Positions 1,399-8,468 of a stretch of DNA of 64,000 nt are shown piece by piece. A program made the position numbers and the translations under genes. Each line of letters begins with the position of its first letter. The first letter of the stretch is position 1. The stretch lies in sequence record MN850619.1. One strand, 5' to 3'. The DNA is from Escherichia phage finno. The notes under the pieces were generated by a model, which did no database searches, was not told the DNA's origin, and was given only the letters and a program-made list of their open reading frames with translations.

Positions 1399-1599
1399 TT
1401 ATTCAGAGTCTGTAGCAGTCTCTTCTTTCTTAACTTCGAACTTTGCATCAACAGCATCCAGAAGTGCATCCATAGATGCTTCTTTAATATCAATACCTGT
1501 TGCTACAGATAATCTATCTGCAATTGCCATGATAGTGTTCTGCATAAATTCTAGCTTTTTATTAGCTTCATAAAGTTCTTTATAAACGGTCTCGCTCAT
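1399..1599 (-). CDS. Hypothetical small protein immediately upstream of terminase
   Basis: 66 aa ORF, same strand, ends 22 nt before terL start; acidic C-terminus; no recognisable motif. Confidence 0.4.
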   Translation of the reverse strand: MSETVYKELYEANKKLEFMQNTIMAIADRLSVATGIDIKEASMDALLDAVDAKFEVKKEETATDSE

Positions 1600-1821
1600 T
1601 ATGTTTTCTCCAAATAATTAACCATGTTTCCCCTTAAAAAAGACGGCACAGAGACCGTCAAGGAGAAACCACAATGTACGTCAGAGACATACTGTATAAG
1701 TCTTCCTATAAAGTATAACTCTGTAAAAAAGCCCTGTCTAAAAATACTCTTCGGTAGCGAAAGGAAGAATACTTATAGCAGGGCATTATTATTATTTTAA
1801 TTGAGAGAGAGTAAAATAACT

Positions 1822-1897
1822 TGGAGAATCCGAAGGGACTTGAACCCTTATAAACCTGTTTTGCAGACAGGCACATATCCATTTCTGTCACGGATTC
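1822..1897 (-). tRNA. tRNA-Cys (anticodon GCA), CCA encoded
   Basis: Reverse-complement T-arm AAGGG-ACTTGAA-CCCTT, acceptor GAATCCG/CGGATTC, anticodon stem CCTGT/ACAGG with loop giving GCA. Confidence 0.8.
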
Positions 1898-1901
1898 AAA
1901 T

Positions 1902-1994
1902 TGGAGGAAGATACCAGACTTGAACTGGTACACCGATTTCTCAGCTACTGGCAGTTTAGCAAACTGCTCCCTTACCTTTTAGGGTTAATCTTCC
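1902..1994 (-). tRNA. tRNA-Ser (anticodon GCU), class II with long variable arm
   Basis: T-arm ACCAG-ACTTGAA-CTGGT, acceptor GGAAGAT/ATCTTCC, anticodon stem GCAGT/ACTGC, 21-nt variable region, 93 nt with CCA. Confidence 0.8.
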
Positions 1995-1995
1995 A

Positions 1996-2730
1996 TTATT
2001 TCTGCAATGCGTTCTTCATTTCTGGTGTTGCAATAGTGTCGATTACACCAGTTTTACAAGCATCATCAAACCAGTCTGGTAAGATACCTGCTAAGAACCC
2101 ATTGATATTCGTTTTAAGGTACTCTGCAATAAGGGCGGCTTCTTCTTCAATCATCTGCACAACTTCATCTGCATAAGCTGTAATCTTTGAGATACCTTCA
2201 TTAATCTTACTAACAGCCTGATTAGCTAAATCAGAAACAGTATCAAGACCCTTATCAATAGCGTCTTGTAAGTCACTTAACACACCGTTAACACTGTCTA
2301 GTGTGCTGTTAATCATGTCAATAGCTTTTTGACCATACTCTGTAGCAACACCCATAATACCACTGAATGGTGTACAACCAACTTGTTCTCCTGCTGCACC
2401 CATAACATTGGAGTATCCCTTTGCTACCTGCATACGTGATGAAAACTCATCAATAGACTTTTGACCATAGTCTGTTAGGGTCTTAGTAGTTGCTGTAGTG
2501 CTTGTCAGGCTTGTTGTAAAGCTGTTTAGAAGGACTGTTGTAAGTCCAGCAGCAACAAGCTTCTCCTTCATTGTAGGGTCTGTTACAGAGCTAATAGAGC
2601 TTACAAGTGATGTAGAGGCAGCTACGGTTCCACCGAGAACTGCTGCACCAGTAATAAGTGGGTTAGAAAACCCTTTACCGGTTTTTAAGAGATTAAAAAT
2701 CTCCTTACCTTGTTCTGTCATCTCTTTCAT
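1996..2730 (-). CDS. Hypothetical Ala/Thr/Ser/Gly-rich protein inside the tRNA cluster
   Basis: ORF track 1996..2793; start trimmed to internal Met (MKEMTEQ...) because the annotated N-terminus overlaps tRNA-Phe; low-complexity T/S/A-rich core. Confidence 0.5.
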   Translation of the reverse strand: MKEMTEQGKEIFNLLKTGKGFSNPLITGAAVLGGTVAASTSLVSSISSVTDPTMKEKLVAAGLTTVLLNSFTTSLTSTTATTKTLTDYGQKSIDEFSSRMQVAKGYSNVMGAAGEQVGCTPFSGIMGVATEYGQKAIDMINSTLDSVNGVLSDLQDAIDKGLDTVSDLANQAVSKINEGISKITAYADEVVQMIEEEAALIAEYLKTNINGFLAGILPDWFDDACKTGVIDTIATPEMKNALQK

Positions 2731-2748
2731 TAAGCACCTTTGAAATTG

Positions 2749-2823
2749 GTAGTCCAGTGGGATTTGAACCCTCTTCTCATGTTTTTCAGACACGCGCTTT
2801 AACCATATAAGCTACTTGGACTA
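2749..2823 (-). tRNA. tRNA-Phe (anticodon GAA), tentative
   Basis: T-loop ATTTGAA, acceptor TAGTCCA/TGGACTA, anticodon loop gives CUGAAAA. Confidence 0.65.
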
Positions 2824-2828
2824 TAAAT

Positions 2829-2905
2829 TGGGGTGACCTACGGGATTTGAACCCGTATAGACCATGTTCACAGCATGGGTCATTACCATTTATGATAAGG
2901 CCACA
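2829..2905 (-). tRNA. tRNA-His (anticodon GUG) with extra 5' G(-1)
   Basis: T-arm ACGGG-ATTTGAA-CCCGT, anticodon stem CCATG/CATGG, loop gives GUG; extra 5' nucleotide consistent with His G-1. Confidence 0.8.
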
Positions 2906-2935
2906 TTTAAGGACTCTCGTAAGAACCCTTAGAAG

Positions 2936-3011
2936 TGGCAGCGGCATAAGGATTTGAACCTTAATAGGACAGCTTCAGAGACTGCTGCATTGCCAGTTAT
3001 GCTATACCGCT
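2936..3011 (-). tRNA. tRNA-Gln (anticodon CUG), tentative
   Basis: T-arm TAAGG-ATTTGAA-CCTTA, D-stem 4/4 pairs, U8/A14/G18G19/A21 present, anticodon loop CUCUGAA. Confidence 0.7.
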
Positions 3012-3016
3012 AAAAT

Positions 3017-3095
3017 TGGTGCTCCATATCGGATTCGAACCGATACATAACACAGATTTTAAGTCTGGCCTCTCTGCCAATTGGAGTAATGGAGC
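3017..3095 (-). tRNA. tRNA, anticodon region reads UAA (Leu-type) but class I length; assignment tentative
   Basis: T-arm ATCGG-ATTCGAA-CCGAT, perfect acceptor GCTCCAT/ATGGAGC, CCA encoded; anticodon loop CUUAAAA; short variable loop. Confidence 0.6.
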
Positions 3096-3097
3096 AT

Positions 3098-3173
3098 TGG
3101 CGGGGGATGTTGGAATTGAACCAACTTCTTCGATTTCAAAGACCGAGGTTTTAACCTTGTAAACTAATCCCCT
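3098..3173 (-). tRNA. tRNA-Gln (anticodon UUG)
   Basis: T-arm GTTGG-AATTGAA-CCAAC, D-stem 4/4, anticodon stem 5/5, loop CUUUGAA. Confidence 0.75.
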
Positions 3174-3181
3174 TTAAATCT

Positions 3182-3739
3182 TTACTTTCTCAGTGGATGA
3201 ATAAAGAATGCCAACATAACTCTTTCCCTTGAGAATGCTCTTTCTTCTGGGACAACACTTTTAAGTTTCCATCCAACATAAATTCTCCAGTAAAACTGTT
3301 TACCAAAGACTTTAATTGATGGGATAAAAGCGAATAATCCCCAAGCATTACTGTTCCACATTAGGAGATAACCAGTCTGATTATCTTCAGGGTTAGAACT
3401 TACGTTGATATTACCTTTCCACTTAGTAACATCTTTTACATCTCTTCCTAATACATGGTAAGAGAAGTTATAAGCTTTGTTTCTCCAGAGCCATCCAACT
3501 CTCTGCATGTAGACACCCAGCTTACCAATCTTTCTAATCTTAGCCCATCTTTTAACGTGGCCTTCATCACCATCAATCTGGTTGTCATAGGTCTCCATCC
3601 ATCTGAATCCAAAAGGTAAGTGTCCTTTCTTTTCACTGTAGAATGGAACTACGAAAGGTGCTAAGATGACTGCTAGGGTTGCTGCAAATGGTTCTAGTAA
3701 AGCTAGGAAAATCCATGAAGCATACTTCAAATATCTCAT
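3182..3739 (-). CDS. Hypothetical membrane protein embedded in tRNA cluster
   Basis: 185 aa ORF with hydrophobic N-terminus (WIFLALLEPFAATLAVILAPFVVPF), flanked by tRNAs without overlap. Confidence 0.5.
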   Translation of the reverse strand: MRYLKYASWIFLALLEPFAATLAVILAPFVVPFYSEKKGHLPFGFRWMETYDNQIDGDEGHVKRWAKIRKIGKLGVYMQRVGWLWRNKAYNFSYHVLGRDVKDVTKWKGNINVSSNPEDNQTGYLLMWNSNAWGLFAFIPSIKVFGKQFYWRIYVGWKLKSVVPEERAFSRERVMLAFFIHPLRK

Positions 3740-3758
3740 CTAAATAGCCTCTTAAAAT

Positions 3759-3836
3759 TGGTGTTCCAAGACGGATTCGAACCGTCACTAATACAAGGTT
3801 TGAGCTTGCATCCTCTGCCAATTGGGATACTGGAAC
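3759..3836 (-). tRNA. tRNA, anticodon region reads CAA (Leu-type) but class I length; tentative
   Basis: T-arm GACGG-ATTCGAA-CCGTC, acceptor GTTCCAA/CTGGAAC, anticodon loop CUCAAAC, 6-nt variable loop. Confidence 0.6.
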
Positions 3837-3837
3837 A

Positions 3838-3912
3838 TGGTACTCACTAAAGGACTTGAACCTTTTTCTTCATCTTGTAAGGGTGATGTTTTACCATATA
3901 AACTAAGCGAGT
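3838..3912 (-). tRNA. tRNA-Val (anticodon UAC), tentative
   Basis: T-arm AAAGG-ACTTGAA-CCTTT, acceptor pairs 7/7 with one G-U, anticodon loop CUUACAA. Confidence 0.65.
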
Positions 3913-4007
3913 GTGAAAGAGGTCTGAAGTTGTGCCGCTAACTCAACTCCGTGGAATTTGTTACGGTCTTCAGTTGACACCAGCGGTCTTTCACTTGACC
4001 TCTGAAT

Positions 4008-4084
4008 TGGTGCTGCTCACAGGACTCGAACCTGCATTTCCATCCTTACAAGGGATGTGTAATAGCCAATTATACGAAAGCAGC
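4008..4084 (-). tRNA. tRNA-Thr (anticodon UGU)
   Basis: T-arm ACAGG-ACTCGAA-CCTGC, perfect anticodon stem CATCC/GGATG, loop CUUGUAA. Confidence 0.8.
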
Positions 4085-4090
4085 ATTGTT

Positions 4091-4165
4091 TGGAGCATCC
4101 AGAGGGAATCGAACCCTCAACCTCAGTTTGGAAGACTGTAATTTTCCCGTTTAAACTATGGATGC
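4091..4165 (-). tRNA. tRNA-Gly (anticodon UCC)
   Basis: T-arm GAGGG-AATCGAA-CCCTC, perfect acceptor GCATCCA/TGGATGC, loop CUUCCAA. Confidence 0.75.
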
Positions 4166-4171
4166 GCTAAT

Positions 4172-4247
4172 TGGTGGAGTCACTGAGAATTGAACTCAGT
4201 TCCCAAGTTTGCAAAACTCGAATTTTAACCATATAAACTATGACCCC
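4172..4247 (-). tRNA. tRNA-Ala (anticodon UGC)
   Basis: T-arm CTGAG-AATTGAA-CTCAG, anticodon stem CAAGT/ACTCG, loop UUUGCAA. Confidence 0.8.
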
Positions 4248-4253
4248 AATGTC

Positions 4254-4329
4254 TGGTACAGGTGGAGGGAATTGAACCCGTCGTCTTACTGATTAAGAGT
4301 CAGCCGCATAACCATTTTGCTACACCTGC
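4254..4329 (-). tRNA. tRNA-Lys (anticodon CUU), tentative
   Basis: T-loop AATTGAA, acceptor ACAGGTG/CACCTGC, anticodon loop CUCUUAA; close paralog of the tRNA at 5569-5644. Confidence 0.65.
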
Positions 4330-4336
4330 ATTAATT

Positions 4337-4414
4337 TGGTAGGAGACAAGGGATTCGAACCCTCAAACATCTCGTTCTAAGCGAGATAGGTTTACCAATT
4401 ACCGTCAACCTCCC
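4337..4414 (-). tRNA. tRNA, anticodon region reads UAG (Leu-type) but class I length; tentative
   Basis: T-arm AAGGG-ATTCGAA-CCCTC, perfect anticodon stem TCTCG/CGAGA with loop CUUAGAA, acceptor pairs with three G-U. Confidence 0.6.
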
Positions 4415-4668
4415 ATTAAGTCTTTTTAGAGAACTTCTAAGAACCTAAGCAACAAGGTTCCACAACAAGCTGTAATAACCTTAGAAGCCCTCTAAAAAGA
4501 CCTAAAAAGGTCTTTGCATAGTCTTGTTTAATCCGGTGACTAGAACCTTTGGAGAGCTTGATATTATCTCTTCTCCGTGACACCTACTAGGTGCTTTATC
4601 AGTGTGTACGACAATACACGAGGGATACCAAAGCAACATCCGAATGAAGCTTGGCTTTAAATCTTATT

Positions 4669-4759
4669 AGGCGGTAAGTAAAGGAGTCGAACCCTCACCG
4701 TATCTCTACAGTGGCAACAGTTTTCAAGACTGTTTGGCTGCCATTAGCCGCTACCTACC
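4669..4759 (-). tRNA. tRNA-Ser (anticodon UGA), class II
   Basis: T-loop AGTCGAA, perfect anticodon stem ACAGT/ACTGT, loop CUUGAAA, about 20-nt variable arm; CCA apparently not encoded. Confidence 0.75.
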
Positions 4760-4772
4760 CCTAATAAGACTT

Positions 4773-4855
4773 TGGCATGGGACGGAGGAGTTGAACCCCT
4801 TTGAAACGGTTTTGGAGGCCGTTGCTCATGCCTTAGAGTCTTAACATCGTCCCAC
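4773..4855 (-). tRNA. tRNA (83 nt with CCA; anticodon not resolved)
   Basis: T-arm GGAGG-AGTTGAA-CCCCT and complementary acceptor ATGGGAC/GTCCCAC; the internal fold could not be resolved by eye. Confidence 0.5.
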
Positions 4856-4997
4856 ACTATAATTCGAAGCTCACCGTATTATCTCAACACTGTAAAGCCC
4901 CTTCTCAGATTATTTACATGTTCTGGAAAACATGAGATACAGACCACCTCCCTACAGGAAGACCCGCTTAGGTCGTCTAAGTAATCTGCTAACTAAT

Positions 4998-5074
4998 TGG
5001 CACACCCTACAGGATTCGAACCTGTAACTAACGATTTAGAAGACCGTTGCTCTATCCAATTGAACTAAGGGTGC
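4998..5074 (-). tRNA. tRNA-Arg (anticodon UCU)
   Basis: T-arm ACAGG-ATTCGAA-CCTGT, anticodon stem ACGAT/ACCGT, loop CUUCUAA. Confidence 0.8.
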
Positions 5075-5410
5075 ATTAATCTTTAAAAACTCTCTTAGAA
5101 AGCCCTTAAAGATGCCCACCTTATTAATCATACCGTGGGCGAGTACGCCAAATTCTTTGATGAGGGATTGGAAGACCTCACTGGTGTTTAGCCTATCAAG
5201 CTACTGCCAGAAAAACATTGTCGTTTGCATTTATTTTAAATTTGCAAAATAGACGCTACGCAACGAAAACTATTCAGAATATGTACAACAAATTTCCCCA
5301 CATTGTGTTACGTCTAACGCTCATGTATTGGTGTTTGAATTATACATATTATGAAGTATTTTAGTTACTATAAAGTAGTCACATCTCAATGTCAACAACT
5401 TTATTGAAAT

Positions 5411-5486
5411 TGGTACTGGTAGGTGGAATCGAACCACCGATGTTCCCTTATCAGGGGAGTGTTATAACCTTCTTAACTATACCAGC
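5411..5486 (-). tRNA. tRNA-Ile (anticodon GAU), tentative
   Basis: T-arm GGTGG-AATCGAA-CCACC, acceptor ACTGGTA/TACCAGC, loop CUGAUAA. Confidence 0.7.
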
Positions 5487-5487
5487 T

Positions 5488-5564
5488 TGGAGGTTCAGAT
5501 GGGAATCGAACCCACATTCATAGGGCTTATGAGACCCTTGCATTACCTTATCTGCGACTGAACC
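5488..5564 (-). tRNA. tRNA with CAU anticodon (Met, initiator or lysidine-Ile not distinguished)
   Basis: T-arm ATGGG-AATCGAA-CCCAC, perfect acceptor GGTTCAG/CTGAACC, loop CUCAUAA. Confidence 0.7.
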
Positions 5565-5568
5565 ATTT

Positions 5569-5644
5569 TGGTAGAAGTGGAGGGATTCGAACCCATCGCC
5601 TGTCAGATTAAAAGTCTGCCGCATCACCATTCTGCTACACTTCC
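5569..5644 (-). tRNA. tRNA-Lys (anticodon UUU), tentative
   Basis: Paralog of the tRNA at 4254-4329; loop CUUUUAA; acceptor AGAAGTG/CACTTCC. Confidence 0.7.
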
Positions 5645-5844
5645 ATTAAATTATCTTTGTAGATAAGCTACCCAGACTTGCTTAAGGTCTGTAGCGATGT
5701 GCCTTTTTGGGTTTAAATCTAGAATTTACCCTTTCACCCTTTGTGGTCGCATACTCACAGGTAAGCTTAATAACTTATCTACAAAGATAATTACCAGACC
5801 GTTGTTTATCATCTTAAGTGCTACCATTACACCAACTCGACCTC

Positions 5845-5920
5845 TGCCGAGTGAAGGAATCGAACCTTCCCATTTTCTTTACCGAGAAATAGATTGTTTA
5901 AGTTTTGCTGTAAACGGTCT
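5845..5920 (-). tRNA. tRNA-like element (canonical T-arm only); possibly degenerate
   Basis: T-arm GAAGG-AATCGAA-CCTTC is present but no complementary 5' acceptor or clean anticodon arm was found. Confidence 0.3.
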
Positions 5921-6075
5921 TCTGTAAATTTGTTGAGCCAGACCAAGTTTTAAATTTTTTCAAAATTGAATTGGCTTGAAAATATCATACGTACTTGCTG
6001 TATTTGGTCTTCTGCTCCTTTAAAGAATACTCGTAAGAACTCTTTAAGGGAGGGGCTAAATAGCCCTCTCAAAAT

Positions 6076-6154
6076 TGGCGGTTACGAAGGGATTTGAACC
6101 CTCATCATCTCCCGTGACAGGGGAGTATTTTAACCAAAATTAAACTACATAACC
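6076..6154 (-). tRNA. tRNA-Asp (anticodon GUC)
   Basis: T-arm AAGGG-ATTTGAA-CCCTC, perfect anticodon stem CTCCC/GGGAG, loop CUGUCAC. Confidence 0.8.
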
Positions 6155-6159
6155 TTTAT

Positions 6160-6247
6160 TGGTGTGCCGTGTAGGAGTCGAACCTACCGAGTCTCAATGA
6201 CAAGGGATTTACAGTCCCCACCGCTACCATCTACGGGATAACGACAC
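6160..6247 (-). tRNA. tRNA-Tyr (anticodon GUA), class II
   Basis: T-arm GTAGG-AGTCGAA-CCTAC, 15-nt variable arm, anticodon stem AGGGA/TCCCC, loop CUGUAAA. Confidence 0.75.
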
Positions 6248-6316
6248 ATTTAATTTCTATTCAGGCTAAGGACTTGCACCTTACAAATCGGTGAGCAATC
6301 GCTTCTCTCCTAAATT

Positions 6317-6393
6317 TGGCGGTTAGTCAGGGATTCGAACCCTGTGCCATTCGCTTAACAGGCGACCGCACATACCTTATGTGCTTCCTAACC
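6317..6393 (-). tRNA. tRNA-Asn (anticodon GUU)
   Basis: T-arm CAGGG-ATTCGAA-CCCTG, loop CUGUUAA. Confidence 0.75.
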
Positions 6394-6476
6394 ATGTTTA
6401 GTATTACCAGACCGTATCTTTCAATTTTTCCGCTAAAAATTTAATAAATATTGCTGTAAACGGTCTTCTGTAAATT

Positions 6477-6553
6477 TGGAGGCGGGTGCAGGAGTCGAAC
6501 CTGCCGATACCATGCTAATGAGACATGTGAGACGCCCTTTCTCTATACCCGCA
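6477..6553 (-). tRNA. Second tRNA with CAU anticodon (Met/fMet/Ile2 not distinguished)
   Basis: T-arm GCAGG-AGTCGAA-CCTGC, anticodon stem CATGC/ACATG, loop CUCAUUA; apparent U1-C72 mismatch. Confidence 0.6.
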
Positions 6554-6644
6554 ATTCTTAATGACCAGACCAAATCTCTTCTTTGTCCGATTTACCTTCA
6601 GATGAATAAGATTAAGTTTGCTGTAATTGGTCTTCTGTCAAAAC

Positions 6645-6722
6645 TGGCGTTCCAGAAGGGATTTGAACCCTCAGATATCCACTTTGAAAGAGTGGTGACT
6701 TTACCATTTTGTCTACTGGAAC
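6645..6722 (-). tRNA. tRNA-Glu (anticodon UUC)
   Basis: T-arm AAGGG-ATTTGAA-CCCTC, perfect acceptor GTTCCAG/CTGGAAC, perfect anticodon stem CCACT/AGTGG, loop CUUUCAA. Confidence 0.8.
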
Positions 6723-6729
6723 ATTAATT

Positions 6730-6806
6730 TGGTCTCTGTTGGAGGACTTGAACCTCCGGCCTTACCGCCCCAAACGGAACGCTCTACCAAGCTGAGCTAA
6801 ACAGAG
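6730..6806 (-). tRNA. tRNA-Pro (anticodon UGG)
   Basis: T-arm GGAGG-ACTTGAA-CCTCC, perfect acceptor and D-stem, loop UUUGGGG with G37. Confidence 0.8.
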
Positions 6807-6971
6807 ATAAACTTTTCAAACTCTATGTAACCACTTTAACATTATTTTTTAGTGATTGTCAAGAACTTTTTTAAAATATTTTTCAGTATCTTAGAAAAGC
6901 TCTCGTTTCGTTTCTATGTAGAACATATTAAAGGGTATCAAACACATTGTCAATACCCTTTTTAAAACTTT

Positions 6972-8387
6972 TTACCAGATATAACGGTCAATCATTACTG
7001 CTTTGAGCATTACGCTGATTGGGTCAAACTTCTCACCACCAAGTAGAGCTTTTAAAGTGGCTGGAGAGAAACCAGATACCATTGCTACACCGTTATCCTT
7101 AACAGATACTTCGCAAGTGCCATTACGGTTTGCTAAGTACCAGAATACCAATTGTGGCATCTCATATCCAGCTTTTTTGTACTTGCTCTGAATTGCTTCA
7201 AAGTTTGTACGACCGTTAGCTCCATCAACCTGATTGAACTCCATATCAGAGAAGATGATAAGCTTACTTGGCATATCTTTCTGAGTCAAGTTGTTTCTTT
7301 TACCTGTCTCAAGAATGCGGTCAAAAGCTGCTTGTAAGTTAGTTGAGCCATATTCAACGTGTCGCATCACCTGACGATGACGGTTTCGTAAATCACCACT
7401 CAGTTCGATGAAGTGAGGGTTTGTTGAATAAACCATTAACTCGTTCTTAAAGCAACCTGTATTGCGTTCTGCTACATACAATGCAAGTGATACACCAATA
7501 TCAAGAGCAGTAATTGAACCAAAATTCACCCAAGACATTGAGCTTGAAACATCAGTCATACACAAGATGTTTTCACCTTCTGCCATCCAGTTTGGTAGTG
7601 CTTTCCACTGCTCATTGGCAACATCTGCATTACCATGCTTGATAGACTTAATCACATCGTATGGGTAAACAGCACCAGCGTTAATCTTAGTCTCACCTTT
7701 TGATAAGGACTCAATGTAAGCTTTGTAGCGTTCTCCATCTTTACGGTTAAACAGTTTTTGGTAACGTGCAGCAGCAAGTGAAGGAATCTTACTGTAGTCA
7801 ATCTTACCAAACTCATTAGCAGAGATTTTTTGCTCAACTGTATCAGATAGTGCAGACAACAGTGTGCGGTACTCTTTCTCACTCAAGTTGGCAAACTTGC
7901 AGAAACGTTTTACAAACTGTTTGTGACGTGGTTTGACTCGTGGTAACCACTTAGCTGCCAAACCTGCTGTTGCAGGGTCTAGTAATGCTGCTTCTAAATG
8001 TTTGAAGGCATCTGTCTCGAAGCGAGTGCCTACGAAGATTTTGAAGTCATCAAAACGACCAAGTTCTGCAATCTTATCCATAATGCGAAGAACCTGTGTA
8101 GGCTCTAAAACTTTATCTTCAATTGCCTGAAGCAAAACAGTTCTGAAGGCTTTACGCTCACCCATACCCTCTCGTACATCTCGCATATGCAGTAAAATAC
8201 GAACTGCAACATCAACATCCTCACGCAAAGCTTTGTAGAACAGGTCTGGTAAGATTTCTACGTTGCTACGGCTTGAACCAGCAGCTTTGTAAAAGTCCAC
8301 AAGAGCAGACATTGATGAAGTATGGTTTACAGCACCATTTTCAGTTCGACCTGCATGAAGGTGCGCATGTTTAAATAATTCGCTCAT
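6972..8387 (-). CDS. vWA-domain protein (MIDAS-like DVSSSMS); possibly DUF2828/TROVE (Ro60)-like
   Basis: 471 aa ORF; N-terminal TENGA...SALVDFYKAAGS stretch and a central DxSxS metal-site motif followed by a vWA-like region; family assignment from motif recollection only. Confidence 0.5.
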   Translation of the reverse strand: MSELFKHAHLHAGRTENGAVNHTSSMSALVDFYKAAGSSRSNVEILPDLFYKALREDVDVAVRILLHMRDVREGMGERKAFRTVLLQAIEDKVLEPTQVLRIMDKIAELGRFDDFKIFVGTRFETDAFKHLEAALLDPATAGLAAKWLPRVKPRHKQFVKRFCKFANLSEKEYRTLLSALSDTVEQKISANEFGKIDYSKIPSLAAARYQKLFNRKDGERYKAYIESLSKGETKINAGAVYPYDVIKSIKHGNADVANEQWKALPNWMAEGENILCMTDVSSSMSWVNFGSITALDIGVSLALYVAERNTGCFKNELMVYSTNPHFIELSGDLRNRHRQVMRHVEYGSTNLQAAFDRILETGKRNNLTQKDMPSKLIIFSDMEFNQVDGANGRTNFEAIQSKYKKAGYEMPQLVFWYLANRNGTCEVSVKDNGVAMVSGFSPATLKALLGGEKFDPISVMLKAVMIDRYIW

Positions 8388-8468
8388 ATTTTACTCTCTT
8401 CTCTCATTTGTTGTTTGATGTGACAGACTTTAGAGCAACTTTGTAGAGTCTGTCAACACCTTTTAAAA

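What the first reader, a model, noticed from the sequence alone, without database searches (positions are those of the whole stretch)
1822..6806. Large tRNA cluster (~27 genes) interleaved with ORFs and repeated GGTCTTCTG / CCAGACC elements
About 26 minus-strand tRNAs with canonical T-arms were placed by hand, many separated by only 1-10 nt and most with CCA encoded. Two protein ORFs (1996-2730, 3182-3739) sit inside the cluster. At least four copies of TTGCTGTAAW-GGTCTTCTG (5903-5929, 5988-6015, 6453-6479, 6611-6647) and related GGTCTTCAG/GGTCTTTCAC repeats (3917-4003) lie 3' of tRNAs and may be processing signals, promoters or small RNA genes.
Basis: partly seen in the sequence, partly recalled or inferred. 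Interest (0 to 1): 0.45.

Follow-up and report, generated by a model that had tools for sequence, protein, structure and literature searches.

The report
Y-like RNAs beside phage Ro60 gene
The repeated motifs between the tRNA genes of this FelixO1-like phage are the conserved stems of four small structured RNAs, which in hundreds of unrelated phages and bacteria sit beside a Ro60-like RNA-binding protein gene and are most likely its undescribed partner ("Y-like") RNAs.

Summary
The minus strand carries 25 canonical tRNAs (ARAGORN), one non-canonical tRNA-Trp-like gene, two ORFs, and four exact copies of TTGCTGT-N4-GGTCTTCTG, each with a CCAGACC partner. The window is a Felixounavirus, so the tRNA cluster itself is already known.

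The repeats are not tRNA trailers or promoters. On the transcribed strand they form a stem (AGACCNN/NNGGUCU-G) followed by single-stranded ACAGCAA and a variable loop. One copy encloses a circularly permuted tRNA.

The same scaffold (AGR-N4 / N4-YCU-G plus CAGCAA), with free covariation, lies on the same strand next to homologues of the upstream gene (6972-8387). This holds in Vibrio-type, Campylobacter, Listeria, Staphylococcus and Mycobacterium phages and in bacterial assemblies. That protein (DUF2828+DUF7788) models as a full-length Ro60 fold.

Best reading: four Y-RNA-like partner RNAs of a divergent phage Ro60, co-transcribed with the tRNAs.

Already published: this gene's Ro60 likeness (Bas63 gp130, a counter to the Ppl defence) and the guess that Y RNAs lie nearby. 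I did not find the RNAs themselves, their motif or their breadth in Rfam 15 or in the searchable papers. Binding and expression are untested.

The parts
6972..8387 (-). Gene for a 471-aa Ro60-fold protein (Pfam DUF2828 + DUF7788; PHROG 850 'RNA-binding protein'); ortholog of Bas63 gp130
   Evidence: Pfam; PHROG. C-terminal vWA domain, with 5 of 34 relatives hitting vWA_Ro60. AF2 model pLDDT 84.5, pTM 0.85. The top 11 Foldseek PDB hits are all full-length Ro60 (E 5e-7 to 1e-5, TM up to 0.65); the next hits are isolated vWA domains at E>4e-3. MIDAS residues D279, S281, S283, T349 and D381 are invariant. bas63_0130 has the same length and position.
6562..6640 (-). Unit A: P1 UGAC/GUCA, loop AGA/G, stem AGACCAA/UUGGUCU, ss UUA-CAGCAA (CAGCAA at 6623-6618), 44-nt loop. 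Lies between tRNA-Glu and tRNA-Met
   Evidence: Fold; CM hit 6561-6639, 41.4 bits, E 4e-8
6404..6473 (-). Unit B: P1 UUAC/GUAA, AGA/G, stem AGACCGU/ACGGUCU, CAGCAA at 6456-6451. Lies between tRNA-Met and tRNA-Asn
   Evidence: Fold; CM hit 6403-6472, 51 bits, E 2e-10. Orthologs in L004 and L007 keep P1 through a compensatory change (UUGC/GCAA) while the loop sequence is replaced.
5935..6017 (-). Unit C: P1 GAGC/GCUC, AGA/G, stem AGACCAA/UUGGUCU, CAGCAA at 6000-5995
   Evidence: Fold; CM hit 5934-6016, 39.2 bits, E 1e-7
5791..5927 (-). Unit D: P1 UUAC/GUAA, AGA/G, stem AGACCGUU/AACGGUCU, CAGCAA at 5910-5905, enclosing a tRNA-like module
   Evidence: Fold -35.2 kcal/mol, z -2.6, 0 of 200 shuffles as good. 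The CM matches only the 5' half because the insert is long. The perfect 8-bp stem was found by scan.
5813..5892 (-). Permuted tRNA-like module of unit D: V hairpin; T arm GAAGG-UUCGAUU-CCUUC (5869-5853); closed 7-bp acceptor hairpin ACUCGGC-agag-GUCGAGU (5852-5835); UG; D arm GUGU-AAUGGUA-GCAC (5832-5818)
   Evidence: MFE structure. Re-permutation test: 200 of 216 constructs called tRNA by ARAGORN, 0 of 4320 shuffled controls, native unit 0. The arm order V-T-AS-D is that described for YrlA (PMC4201824).
1822..6806 (-). tRNA cluster in which the units are embedded: 25 canonical tRNAs for 19 amino acids
   Evidence: ARAGORN, Rfam; annotated in relatives
6833..6953 (-). Two tandem sigma-70-like promoters (6953-6925, TTGACA-17-TAATAT; 6862-6833, TTGACA-18-TAAAGT with TG) between the gene's stop codon and tRNA-Pro. 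Likely start of the tRNA/unit transcript
   Evidence: Consensus scan, 10 of 12 matches each. The total count of such sites in the region is not above chance, so this is inferred.
8427..8456 (-). Sigma-70-like promoter upstream of the Ro60-like gene (TTGACA-18-TAAAGT)
   Evidence: inferred
4773..4856 (-). Non-canonical tRNA-Trp-like gene (anticodon loop CUCCAAA, 7-bp acceptor, GCCA end, odd D arm)
   Evidence: Direct reading; tRNA-Sec-model hit of 23 bits, E 0.4; conserved with compensatory changes in L008 9985-10068. Not called by ARAGORN.
1996..2793 (-). ORF inside the cluster, DUF7217 family
3182..3739 (-). ORF inside the cluster, DUF7338 family (called 'holin' in phage Mushroom)

Best explanation
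The GGTCTTCTG and CCAGACC repeats are the 5' and 3' strands, read on the opposite strand, of the basal stem of four paralogous small non-coding RNA genes (units A-D, 70-137 nt). These are the partner RNAs of the Ro60-fold protein encoded immediately upstream, that is, a divergent class of Y RNA.

Each unit has three parts:
1. A stem whose base is conserved (5'-AGR...YCU-G-3') and whose upper pairs vary freely.
2. A conserved single-stranded CAGCAA 2-3 nt after the 5' strand.
3. A variable effector part. In units A-C it is a G-poor, largely unstructured loop. In unit D it is a circularly permuted tRNA.

Felixounaviruses add a 4-bp outer helix and an AGA/G internal loop.

Inferred mechanism:
- The units are transcribed with the tRNAs from the tandem promoters downstream of the gene.
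- They are freed by the enzymes that cut out the flanking tRNAs (RNase P at the 5' end of the next tRNA, then 3' trimming back to the stem).
- The ring-shaped protein binds the conserved stem base plus CAGCAA.
- The variable part gates the ring or tethers it to other factors. The tRNA mimic would engage tRNA-binding enzymes, as Y RNAs do for bacterial Rsr with PNPase.
- The recurrent linkage of the gene to tRNA clusters, tmRNA and RtcB points to surveillance, repair or protection of tRNA-like RNAs during infection.

Shown here: structure conservation and covariation, gene linkage, protein fold, tRNA mimicry. Inferred: expression as discrete RNAs, processing, binding, function.
For: (1) Within the window, four units share one architecture, and both helices covary between copies. 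Orthologs in other Felixounaviruses keep the scaffold through a compensatory P1 change and a G-U change while the loop sequence is replaced.

(2) Unbiased test in 75 non-Felix phage loci. The 5' sequence anchor AGR-N4-N0-3-WW-CAGCAA occurs 87 times on the gene strand and 10 times on the other strand. 57 of the 87 have a perfect 7-nt complement 10-260 nt downstream, against about 1 expected. Those use 31 different NNNN, and 56 of 57 are followed by G.

(3) Position: 55 same-strand units within 500 nt of the gene (78 kb) against 14 at 2-6 kb (519 kb), a 26-fold enrichment; the opposite strand has 2.

(4) The covariance model gives 85 of 85 hits on the gene strand in 935 kb. Pairing is 96.7% against 27-47% in slid controls, 6 of 6 pairs change on both sides, and 144 cells are compensatory against 45 +/- 8 in shuffles.

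(5) Independent replication: 42 of 42 hits on the gene strand in 80 bacterial-assembly loci. Hits also lie next to the gene in Listeria, Staphylococcus, Campylobacter and Mycobacterium phages.

(6) The protein has a full-length Ro60 fold.

(7) Unit D and long units in 6 other loci are permuted tRNAs. In Mycobacterium phage Kingsolomon the middle unit's T, AS and D arms align to Rfam YrlA (37.9 bits) while the outer stems are the CAGCAA scaffold.

(8) Context: same-strand tRNAs or tmRNA in 20 of 36 loci; RtcB directly downstream in about 20 of 80 bacterial loci and nearby in the Listeria phage.

(9) Literature: Y RNAs are encoded within 4 kb, on the same strand, of bacterial and phage Ro60 genes (PMC4201824). 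Bas63 gp130 is Ro60-like and its authors suspected nearby Y RNAs (PMC11482910). A similar suspicion was raised for Listeria phage CKA15 (PMC12282133).
Against: - No expression, end-mapping or binding data exist for these units.
- The abundant transcripts reported in Listeria phage CKA15 (CKA15_059-061) are not CAGCAA units.
- Bas63 gp130 alone, expressed from a plasmid or from T7, restores growth on a Ppl-defence host (PMC11482910). The one known phenotype of the protein therefore does not need the phage RNAs.
- The units lack the Ro-binding motifs of known Y RNAs (GGUCCGA; GNCGAAN0-1G/CGAA) and do not reach Rfam YrlA or Y_RNA thresholds.
- In about half of the distant loci no unit was detected with my model. 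Truncated flanks, long inserts and motif drift may explain part of this.
- In some Vibrio-phage-type loci a 33-36-nt mini unit abuts the gene's ribosome-binding site, which suits a cis-regulatory role.
- Scaffold variants do not track protein clades.
Confidence: 0.68

Rival explanations
1. The units are cis-acting RNA elements, not free RNAs. They would be operator or stability sites in the UTRs of the Ro60-like mRNA and in the pre-tRNA transcript, through which the protein autoregulates its synthesis or controls processing of the adjacent tRNAs.
For: The units always lie on the gene's strand, often within its 5' or 3' UTR. Mini units of 33-36 nt end a few bases before the ribosome-binding site in L009, L014, L017, L027 and L030. 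In the Listeria phage three units lie between a promoter-like site and the start codon.
Against: There are up to six copies per locus, on either side of the gene. In this window the units lie behind separate promoters and are separated from the gene by tRNAs. Some units carry an elaborate tRNA mimic, which an operator has no obvious need for. By analogy, Y RNAs next to Ro60 genes are free RNAs (PMC4201824).
Confidence: 0.17
2. The repeats are tRNA-precursor processing or transcription signals (leaders, trailers, promoters or terminators) of the tRNA operon, unrelated to the neighbouring protein.
For: Units A and B start 4-5 nt after a tRNA CCA end and finish about 10 nt before the next tRNA. 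TTTACA in the P1 region weakly resembles a -35 box.
Against: Only 4 of about 25 spacers have them. The same scaffold occurs beside the gene in loci without tRNAs. Conservation is of base pairing, not of sequence. Linkage to the gene holds in seven phage lineages and in bacteria.
Confidence: 0.05
3. They are DNA-level repeats: terminal inverted repeats of miniature mobile elements, recombination or homing-endonuclease sites that shuffle tRNA cassettes.
For: The short inverted repeats flank variable inserts. tRNA content and HNH endonuclease insertions vary among Felixounaviruses.
Against: The asymmetric CAGCAA motif has strict strand polarity relative to one gene (87 against 10 anchors; 85 of 85 and 42 of 42 CM hits). 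The stem sequence is different in every lineage while pairing is kept. G-U pairs are tolerated. There are no copies elsewhere in 64 kb.
Confidence: 0.03
4. They are decaying tRNA pseudogenes or chance similarity between spacers.
For: Unit D contains tRNA arms. The region at 3913-4007 looks like a decayed copy.
Against: Four exact copies against 0.53 expected. The scaffold is conserved across genomes whose proteins are 28-48% identical. The tRNA arms are in a precise permuted order shared with YrlA.
Confidence: 0.02

Closest known systems
YrlA/YrlB Y RNAs with the Ro60 ortholog Rsr of Salmonella and about 250 other bacteria, plus canonical-Ro60 phages (Chen et al. 2014, PMC4201824; Rfam RF02553)
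   Same: One long RNA with a tRNA-like domain in the order V, T, closed acceptor, D, plus shorter RNAs without it. They are encoded within a few kb on the same strand as a ring-plus-vWA Ro60 protein. There is a 5'/3' stem with a conserved purine-rich motif on the 5' side, and frequent linkage to RtcB.
   Different: The protein is a different sequence family (DUF2828/DUF7788, no Pfam TROVE hit). The binding module is AGR...YCUG plus CAGCAA instead of GNCGAAN0-1G. The Rfam YrlA model does not reach threshold. The RNAs are embedded in a phage tRNA operon, and there are up to six copies.
Thermus phage phiLo Ro60 with Yrl1 and Yrl2 (PMC12135203; PDB 9KOP, 9L5Y)
   Same: A phage-encoded Ro60-fold protein with two adjacent small RNAs having a terminal stem and a large internal loop that carries the binding motif. 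It is the best structural match to the model here.
   Different: phiLo Ro60 is a recognisable TROVE protein and its RNAs carry CGAA. Binding and PNPase recruitment are shown experimentally there, and nothing is shown here.
Bas63 (JohannRWettstein) gp130, a counter to the Ppl defence (PhageMaP preprint, PMC11482910)
   Same: It is the ortholog of the window's gene. Its authors noted the Ro60-like fold and its position upstream of the tRNAs.
   Different: They guessed that some annotated tRNA genes might be Y RNAs. The candidates found here are in the spacers, not the tRNAs, and are defined by a motif shared across phage lineages. gp130 works against Ppl without them.
Metazoan Y RNAs with Ro60 (Rfam RF00019; PDB 1YVP)
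   Same: A terminal stem formed by the 5' and 3' ends with a conserved protein-binding region, and a variable loop as effector.
   Different: No sequence or covariance-model similarity. They have a different motif (GGUCCGA with a bulged C) and are transcribed by RNA polymerase III.
Small stable RNAs in the phage T4 tRNA cluster (species 1 and 2, rnaC/rnaD). This item is from my own knowledge and was not checked here.
   Same: Non-tRNA structured RNAs co-transcribed and co-processed with phage tRNAs, with function still unknown.
   Different: T4 has no Ro60-like gene next to them as far as I know, and no similarity was tested.

Membership tests
Ro60 / TROVE-vWA proteins | Overall fold: helical-repeat ring followed by a vWA domain | tested here: met
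   AF2 model (pLDDT 84.5). The 11 best PDB matches are full-length Ro60 chains with about 530 aligned columns and TM 0.49-0.65.
Ro60 / TROVE-vWA proteins | Sequence match to Pfam TROVE (PF05731) | tested here: not met
   No TROVE hit for the protein or for any of 34 relatives even at E<=5; they hit DUF2828 and DUF7788 instead. A profile search against PDB sequences gives Ro60 only at E 0.7-1.4, on the vWA part.
Ro60 / TROVE-vWA proteins | MIDAS motif (DxSxS...T...D) in the vWA domain | tested here: met
   D279, S281, S283, T349 and D381 are invariant in 34 relatives. 5 of 34 hit Pfam vWA_Ro60.
Ro60 / TROVE-vWA proteins | Binds Y RNA or misfolded RNA | not testable with these tools
   Needs RIP/CLIP, gel shift or a structure.
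YrlA Y RNA (Rfam RF02553) | Reaches the Rfam gathering score (69 bits) | tested here: not met
   No YrlA hit on units A-D at E<=10. The best relative (Mycobacterium phage unit) scores 37.9 bits.
YrlA Y RNA (Rfam RF02553) | Encoded within 4 kb of, and on the same strand as, the Ro60 ortholog | tested here: met
   Units lie 332-1181 nt downstream of the stop codon on the same strand. The same holds in other lineages.
YrlA Y RNA (Rfam RF02553) | tRNA-like domain with V, T, closed acceptor and D arms | tested here: met
   Met by unit D only; units A-C lack it, as YrlB does.
YrlA Y RNA (Rfam RF02553) | GNCGAAN0-1G motif near the 5' end (proposed Rsr site) | tested here: not met
   The sequence shows (U)ACAGCAA at that place in all four units. 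The YrlA outer stems do not align.
CAGCAA-scaffold RNAs (family defined here) | Stem with an AGR/YCU base and a 3' G, CAGCAA 2-4 nt after the 5' strand, same strand as and near a DUF2828-vWA gene | tested here: met
   Units A-C score 39-51 bits (E 1e-7 to 2e-10) and unit D fits by scan.
tRNA | Cloverleaf called by ARAGORN or by the Rfam tRNA model | tested here: met
   25 genes by ARAGORN and 23 by Rfam. Units A-D are not called in their native form.

The most novel reading that the evidence does not exclude
A large, previously unrecognised branch of the Ro60/Y-RNA world. A divergent Ro60 family is present in about 1.4% of sequenced phage genomes (709 of 50,697 records) and in many Clostridia. 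It would use a modular RNA class, with one fixed binding scaffold and interchangeable effector loops that include permuted tRNAs. Phages would express these RNAs from within their tRNA operons as tethers, gates or decoys, to protect or repair tRNAs and to blunt host defences. Ro60 RNPs would then be a common phage counter-defence tool rather than a curiosity.
Probability: 0.3. Interest if true: 0.8.

Novelty: new variant of a known kind. Interest (0 to 1): 0.6.

Why it matters
Ro60/Y-RNA particles are conserved from bacteria to humans, yet their bacterial and viral roles are poorly understood. Partner RNAs have been found only for canonical TROVE proteins.

This work gives a concrete, testable RNA partner (motif, boundaries, structure) for a much more widespread Ro60-like family. 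One member, Bas63 gp130, already has a phenotype against the Ppl defence system.

It explains conserved 'spacers' and spurious small ORFs in the tRNA regions of FelixO1-like, KVP40-like, P100/A511-like, Campylobacter and cluster L mycobacteriophage genomes.

It also links phage tRNA clusters, tmRNA and RtcB repair genes to an RNP that includes a tRNA mimic.

The covariance model could seed an Rfam family and improve phage annotation.

Tried and rejected
1. An exact-motif search (AGAAGACC...ACAGCA) in 80 distant loci found only Felixounaviruses. Relaxing it to the architecture was necessary.
2. Known RNA families: no Rfam 15 family at gathering or at E<=10 explains the units. The only hits were chance-level Dicty_Class_I. 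No known self-cleaving ribozyme family in Rfam matched.
3. Sequence-only links from the protein to solved structures failed or were non-significant. The fold comparison was needed.
4. A conserved apical hairpin in the short units is rejected. Loop interiors fold no better than shuffles (median z -0.24).
5. Extra AGCAA copies in the loops show only weak enrichment (19 of 84 loops against 11.7 expected), so this is not a general feature.
6. Co-variation of scaffold type (AGR or UGG) with protein clade: 60 of 74 against about 77% expected, which is uninformative.
7. Expression evidence from the Listeria phage CKA15 study: the hyper-abundant CKA15_059-061 region is not a CAGCAA unit, so I do not use it as support.
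8. The 3913-4007 repeats are not members of the family.
9. The first re-permutation script mis-parsed ARAGORN output ('0 genes found' counted as a hit), so one search is invalid. crashed. One search is the valid run.
10. Two Wolin-lab reviews could not be read, and the supplement listing the 22 phages of Chen et al. is not held. I therefore cannot exclude that some DUF2828-type phages were in that list.

Full report
**1.

The region 1500-7100 is 95-98% identical to more than 200 FelixO1-like myoviruses (genus Felixounavirus; for example Salmonella phage Mushroom, 97%). ARAGORN finds 25 tRNA genes, all on the minus strand between 1822 and 6806. Rfam's tRNA model passes its curated threshold for 23 of them. 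They cover 19 amino acids, with Trp missing.

A non-canonical tRNA-like gene with anticodon CCA lies at about 4773-4856. It is seen only weakly by Rfam but is conserved, with compensatory changes, in a second genus. The two ORFs inside the cluster are real families: DUF7217 at 1996-2793 and DUF7338 at 3182-3739.

The repeat TTGCTGT-N4-GGTCTTCTG occurs exactly four times and nowhere else in the 64 kb (0.53 expected). Each copy is followed, on the transcribed strand, by one GGTCTGG. The tRNA cluster itself is an annotated, known feature of these phages.

**2. Anatomy of the repeats**

Read on the minus strand, each repeat is the start of a bounded unit:

- a 4-bp outer helix (UGAC/GUCA, UUAC/GUAA, GAGC/GCUC, UUAC/GUAA)
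- an AGA/G internal loop
- a 7-8-bp helix, AGACCNN/NNGGUCU
- a single-stranded (U)ACAGCAA
- a variable interior

All four fold this way as the minimum-free-energy structure. Both helices differ between copies while staying paired. In other Felixounaviruses the ortholog of unit B has UUGC/GCAA in the outer helix (a compensatory change) and an unrelated loop sequence. Unit A in L005 has a G-U in place of A-U.

The pairing is within a spacer, not across a tRNA. The extension pairs (AA/UU, GU/AC, GUU/AAC) match only within units.

Units A (6640-6562) and B (6473-6404) each fill a tRNA spacer. Units C (6017-5935) and D (5927-5791) follow tRNA-Asp.

Unit D encloses four hairpins. In order they are a variable-arm-like hairpin, a canonical T arm (GAAGG-UUCGAUU-CCUUC), a 7-bp hairpin stacked directly on it, then UG and a D arm with the GG loop (GUGU-AAUGGUA-GCAC).

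**3. The neighbouring gene**

The ORF at 8387-6972 ends 166 nt before the first tRNA. It is labelled 'RNA-binding protein' or 'vWFA protein' in some relatives. Pfam sees only DUF2828 and DUF7788, and PHROG 850 calls it 'RNA-binding protein'.

Its C-terminal half is a vWA domain with an invariant MIDAS motif. A few relatives hit Pfam's Ro60-specific vWA model. An AlphaFold2 model built on 34 relatives is confident (pLDDT 84.5, pTM 0.85).

Its 11 best Foldseek matches in the PDB are all full-length Ro60 chains: Thermus phage phiLo, Xenopus and human. They have E-values of 5e-7 to 1e-5, TM-scores up to 0.65, and about 530 aligned columns. The next matches are isolated vWA domains at E > 4e-3. The protein is therefore a divergent Ro60-fold protein that sequence profiles do not place in TROVE.

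**4. The units travel with the gene**

I fetched 80 viral contigs encoding relatives, 75 of them at 39-48% identity. The literal Felix motif is absent there. The nearest other genus (L008) shows the same architecture with different stems: AGAGCAC-AUUCAGCAA...GUGCUCU, AGAGCAG-UUUCAGCAA...CUGCUCU and AGGACAC-UUUCAGCAA...GUGUCCU.

A scan for 'stem + 0-4 nt + CAGCAA + 3' strand' found such units beside the gene in many loci. The consensus is A/U-AGR-N4 | N-W-W-CAGCAA | loop | N4-YCU-G. A minority variant has UGG...CCA-G.

Because that scan required a stem, I ran an unbiased test on the 75 non-Felix loci:

- The 5' sequence anchor alone occurs 87 times on the gene strand and 10 times on the other strand.
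- 57 of the 87 have a perfect 7-nt complement 10-260 nt downstream, against about 1 expected from scrambled 7-mers or shuffled downstream sequence.
- Those 57 use 31 different NNNN sequences.
- 56 of the 57 are followed by G.

Units are 26-fold denser within 500 nt of the gene than at 2-6 kb from it.

A covariance model built from 38 short units gave 85 hits at E <= 1 in 935 kb, all on the gene strand. In the window the only hits are the four units. On the model alignment:

- 96.7% of cells pair, against 27-47% when the partner is slid.
- All six pairs change on both sides.
- 144 cells are compensatory, against 45 +/- 8 in shuffles.

That alignment leans towards the structure by construction. 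The independent support is and the replications below.

**5. Replication outside the training set**

The gene is present in 709 of 50,697 phage records. These include Vibrio, Aeromonas, Campylobacter, Listeria, Staphylococcus, Enterococcus, Bacillus, cyanophage and Mycobacterium phages. The model finds units next to the gene, on its strand, in four further phages:

- Listeria phage LMTA-94: three units just upstream, E 1e-8, 7e-7 and 5e-3. The same three occur in phage CKA15.
- Staphylococcus phage S-CoN_Ph11: three units just downstream.
- Campylobacter phage NCTC12673: between three tRNAs and the gene.
- Mycobacterium phage Kingsolomon: three units just downstream.

In 80 bacterial-assembly loci, mostly Clostridia and possibly prophages, all 42 hits at E <= 0.1 are on the gene strand. 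Most are within 500 nt upstream.

**6. Relation to known Y RNAs**

Chen et al. (PMC4201824) defined bacterial YrlA RNAs by four features: they lie next to Ro60 genes on the same strand; they have a GNCGAAN0-1G motif near the 5' end; they carry a tRNA-like domain with arms in the order V, T, closed acceptor stem, D; and they are accompanied by a shorter YrlB without that domain. Unit D has exactly that arm order.

I tested the mimicry formally. Each module was cut in the acceptor hairpin loop and the scaffold was replaced by a generic anticodon arm. Results:

- ARAGORN-208 of 216 junction variants a tRNA for 7 of 8 long units, window unit D included.
- It-45 of 4320 variants when the D side and T arm are shuffled.
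- It never calls the native units.

In the mycobacteriophage the middle unit's T, AS and D arms align almost perfectly to Rfam's YrlA consensus (37.9 bits, below the 69-bit threshold). YrlA's outer Ro-binding stems fail to pair there and are replaced by UGGACCCC-c-ACAGCAA...GGGGUCCAG. So the effector module is shared with YrlA and the protein-binding module is different, as expected for a different Ro60 branch.

Units A-D do not match the Rfam YrlA or Y_RNA models.

**7. Genomic context and function**

- In 20 of 36 distant loci, tRNA genes or a tmRNA lie in the flanks, and every one is on the gene's strand.
- In the Listeria phage an RtcB ligase and an RNA ligase lie downstream.
- In about 20 of 80 bacterial loci RtcB follows the gene directly. 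This recalls the Salmonella rsr-yrlBA-rtcBA operon (PMC7790460, listed).
- In this window, strong sigma-70-like promoters lie upstream of the gene (8456-8427), between the gene and tRNA-Pro (6953-6925 and 6862-6833), and inside the cluster (5395-5367). The units are therefore probably made with the tRNAs and released by tRNA-processing enzymes. This step is inferred.

**8. Prior art**

- The PhageMaP preprint (PMC11482910) studied Bas63, whose bas63_0130 is the ortholog. It reports that gp130 resembles Ro60, lies upstream of the tRNAs, and counters the Ppl defence. [quoted passage not shown]
- The same preprint shows that gp130 alone protects T7 from Ppl. That activity therefore does not need the phage RNAs.
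- A Listeria phage study (PMC12282133) found the homolog by HHpred, detected it in virions, and speculated that nearby abundant transcripts are Y RNAs. Those transcripts (CKA15_059-061) are not CAGCAA units.
- Cluster L mycobacteriophage homologs are annotated 'Ro-like RNA binding protein'.
- I found no description of the RNA scaffold itself in Rfam 15 or in the papers I could search. Two reviews and one supplement could not be read.

**9. Verdict**

The finding is real. The interesting part is not the tRNA cluster but the repeats. They are four copies of a conserved, covarying, strand-specific RNA scaffold genetically linked to a Ro60-fold protein across very distant phages and bacteria, and one copy carries a permuted tRNA.

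The best-supported reading is a new class of Y-like partner RNAs (confidence 0.68). The main rival is a purely cis-regulatory role for the same protein-binding elements (0.17).

I rate it a new variant of a known kind. The Ro60/Y-RNA principle is known, and the likeness of this gene to Ro60 is published. The RNA class, its binding module, its placement inside phage tRNA operons and its breadth are not.

Expression, processing, binding and biological role remain untested.

Noticed in passing
window 5645-5793 (-): A 149-nt element between unit D and tRNA-Lys is closed by a roughly 24-bp perfect stem (AAUUAUCUUUGUAGAUAAGCUAC...) around a multi-branched interior. MFE is -48.3 kcal/mol, z = -7.2. 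There is no Rfam match. Its 5' end overlaps the outer helix of unit D. It may be another non-coding RNA.
   Followed up: partly
window 4773-4856 (-); L008 9985-10068: A non-canonical tRNA-Trp-like gene (anticodon loop CUCCAAA closed by a C-A mismatch, unusual D arm) is missed by ARAGORN and by most GenBank annotations. It is conserved in two genera with compensatory changes.
   Followed up: partly
window 3913-4007 (-): This hairpin (z = -3.0) contains GAAGACCGU-AACAAA, which looks like a decayed 5' half of a unit. It is not detected by the covariance model.
   Followed up: partly
window 5075-5410 (-): A strong promoter-like site (TTGACA-17-TATAGT, 5395-5367) is followed by about 290 nt without an ORF or tRNA before tRNA-Arg. 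There are weak tmRNA-model hits (E 0.008). Its function is unknown.
   Followed up: no
window 6248-6316 and 4415-4669 (-): Further unexplained spacers in the cluster. The first is a 69-nt hairpin (z = -2.6) between tRNA-Asn and tRNA-Tyr. The second is a 255-nt spacer with several hairpins.
   Followed up: no
L009 5954-5986, L014 1764-1795, L017 2859-2890, L027 5950-5985, L030 5903-5937: In Vibrio-phage-type (KVP40-like) loci a minimal 33-36-nt unit (AGAAUU-nnnn-CAGCAA-...-AAUUCU-G) ends a few bases before the ribosome-binding site of the Ro60-like gene. This suggests translational autoregulation.
   Followed up: no
L009 5276-5370, L010 3133-3232, L014 149-280, L017 1265-1373, L027 5734-5828: A second conserved effector module sits inside long units of the same loci (..AACCUUUCUGGAGGGGAAAGCAAAAACUCGCCAAAA..). 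It is unrelated to tRNA, and the scaffold stem shows compensatory changes between orthologs.
   Followed up: no
L101, L104, L113, L119, L126-L128, L136, L146-L148, L160, L165, L167 and others; L084 7807-9018: An RtcB RNA ligase gene lies directly downstream of the Ro60-like gene on the same strand in about 20 of 80 bacterial-assembly loci. It is also nearby in Listeria P100-like phages.
   Followed up: partly
L087 2415-2725 (Listeria phage CKA15): CKA15_059-061 are tiny ORFs reported to account for up to 67% of phage transcripts. They lie behind a strong promoter 1.2 kb upstream of the Ro60-like gene and are not CAGCAA units. They are probably a different abundant non-coding RNA.
   Followed up: partly
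L084 643-741; L026 11696-11922; L029, L031, L032, L041: Other RNA genes lie near the Ro60-like gene in relatives: a drum RNA (RF02958, 50 bits) in the Listeria phage tRNA region, a group I intron in L026, and phage-encoded tmRNAs in four loci.
   Followed up: no
window 5697-5927 (+); L169 3449-3723; L002 4887-5117: GenBank records annotate small opposite-strand 'hypothetical proteins' (bas63_0137/0138, pinkbiff_41) exactly over units C and D and the long hairpin. These are probably spurious ORFs.
   Followed up: partly
window 6930-6961 (-): A 12-bp hairpin right after the stop codon of the Ro60-like gene contains the -35 box of the first tRNA-cluster promoter in its loop, so a possible terminator and a promoter overlap.
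   Followed up: no
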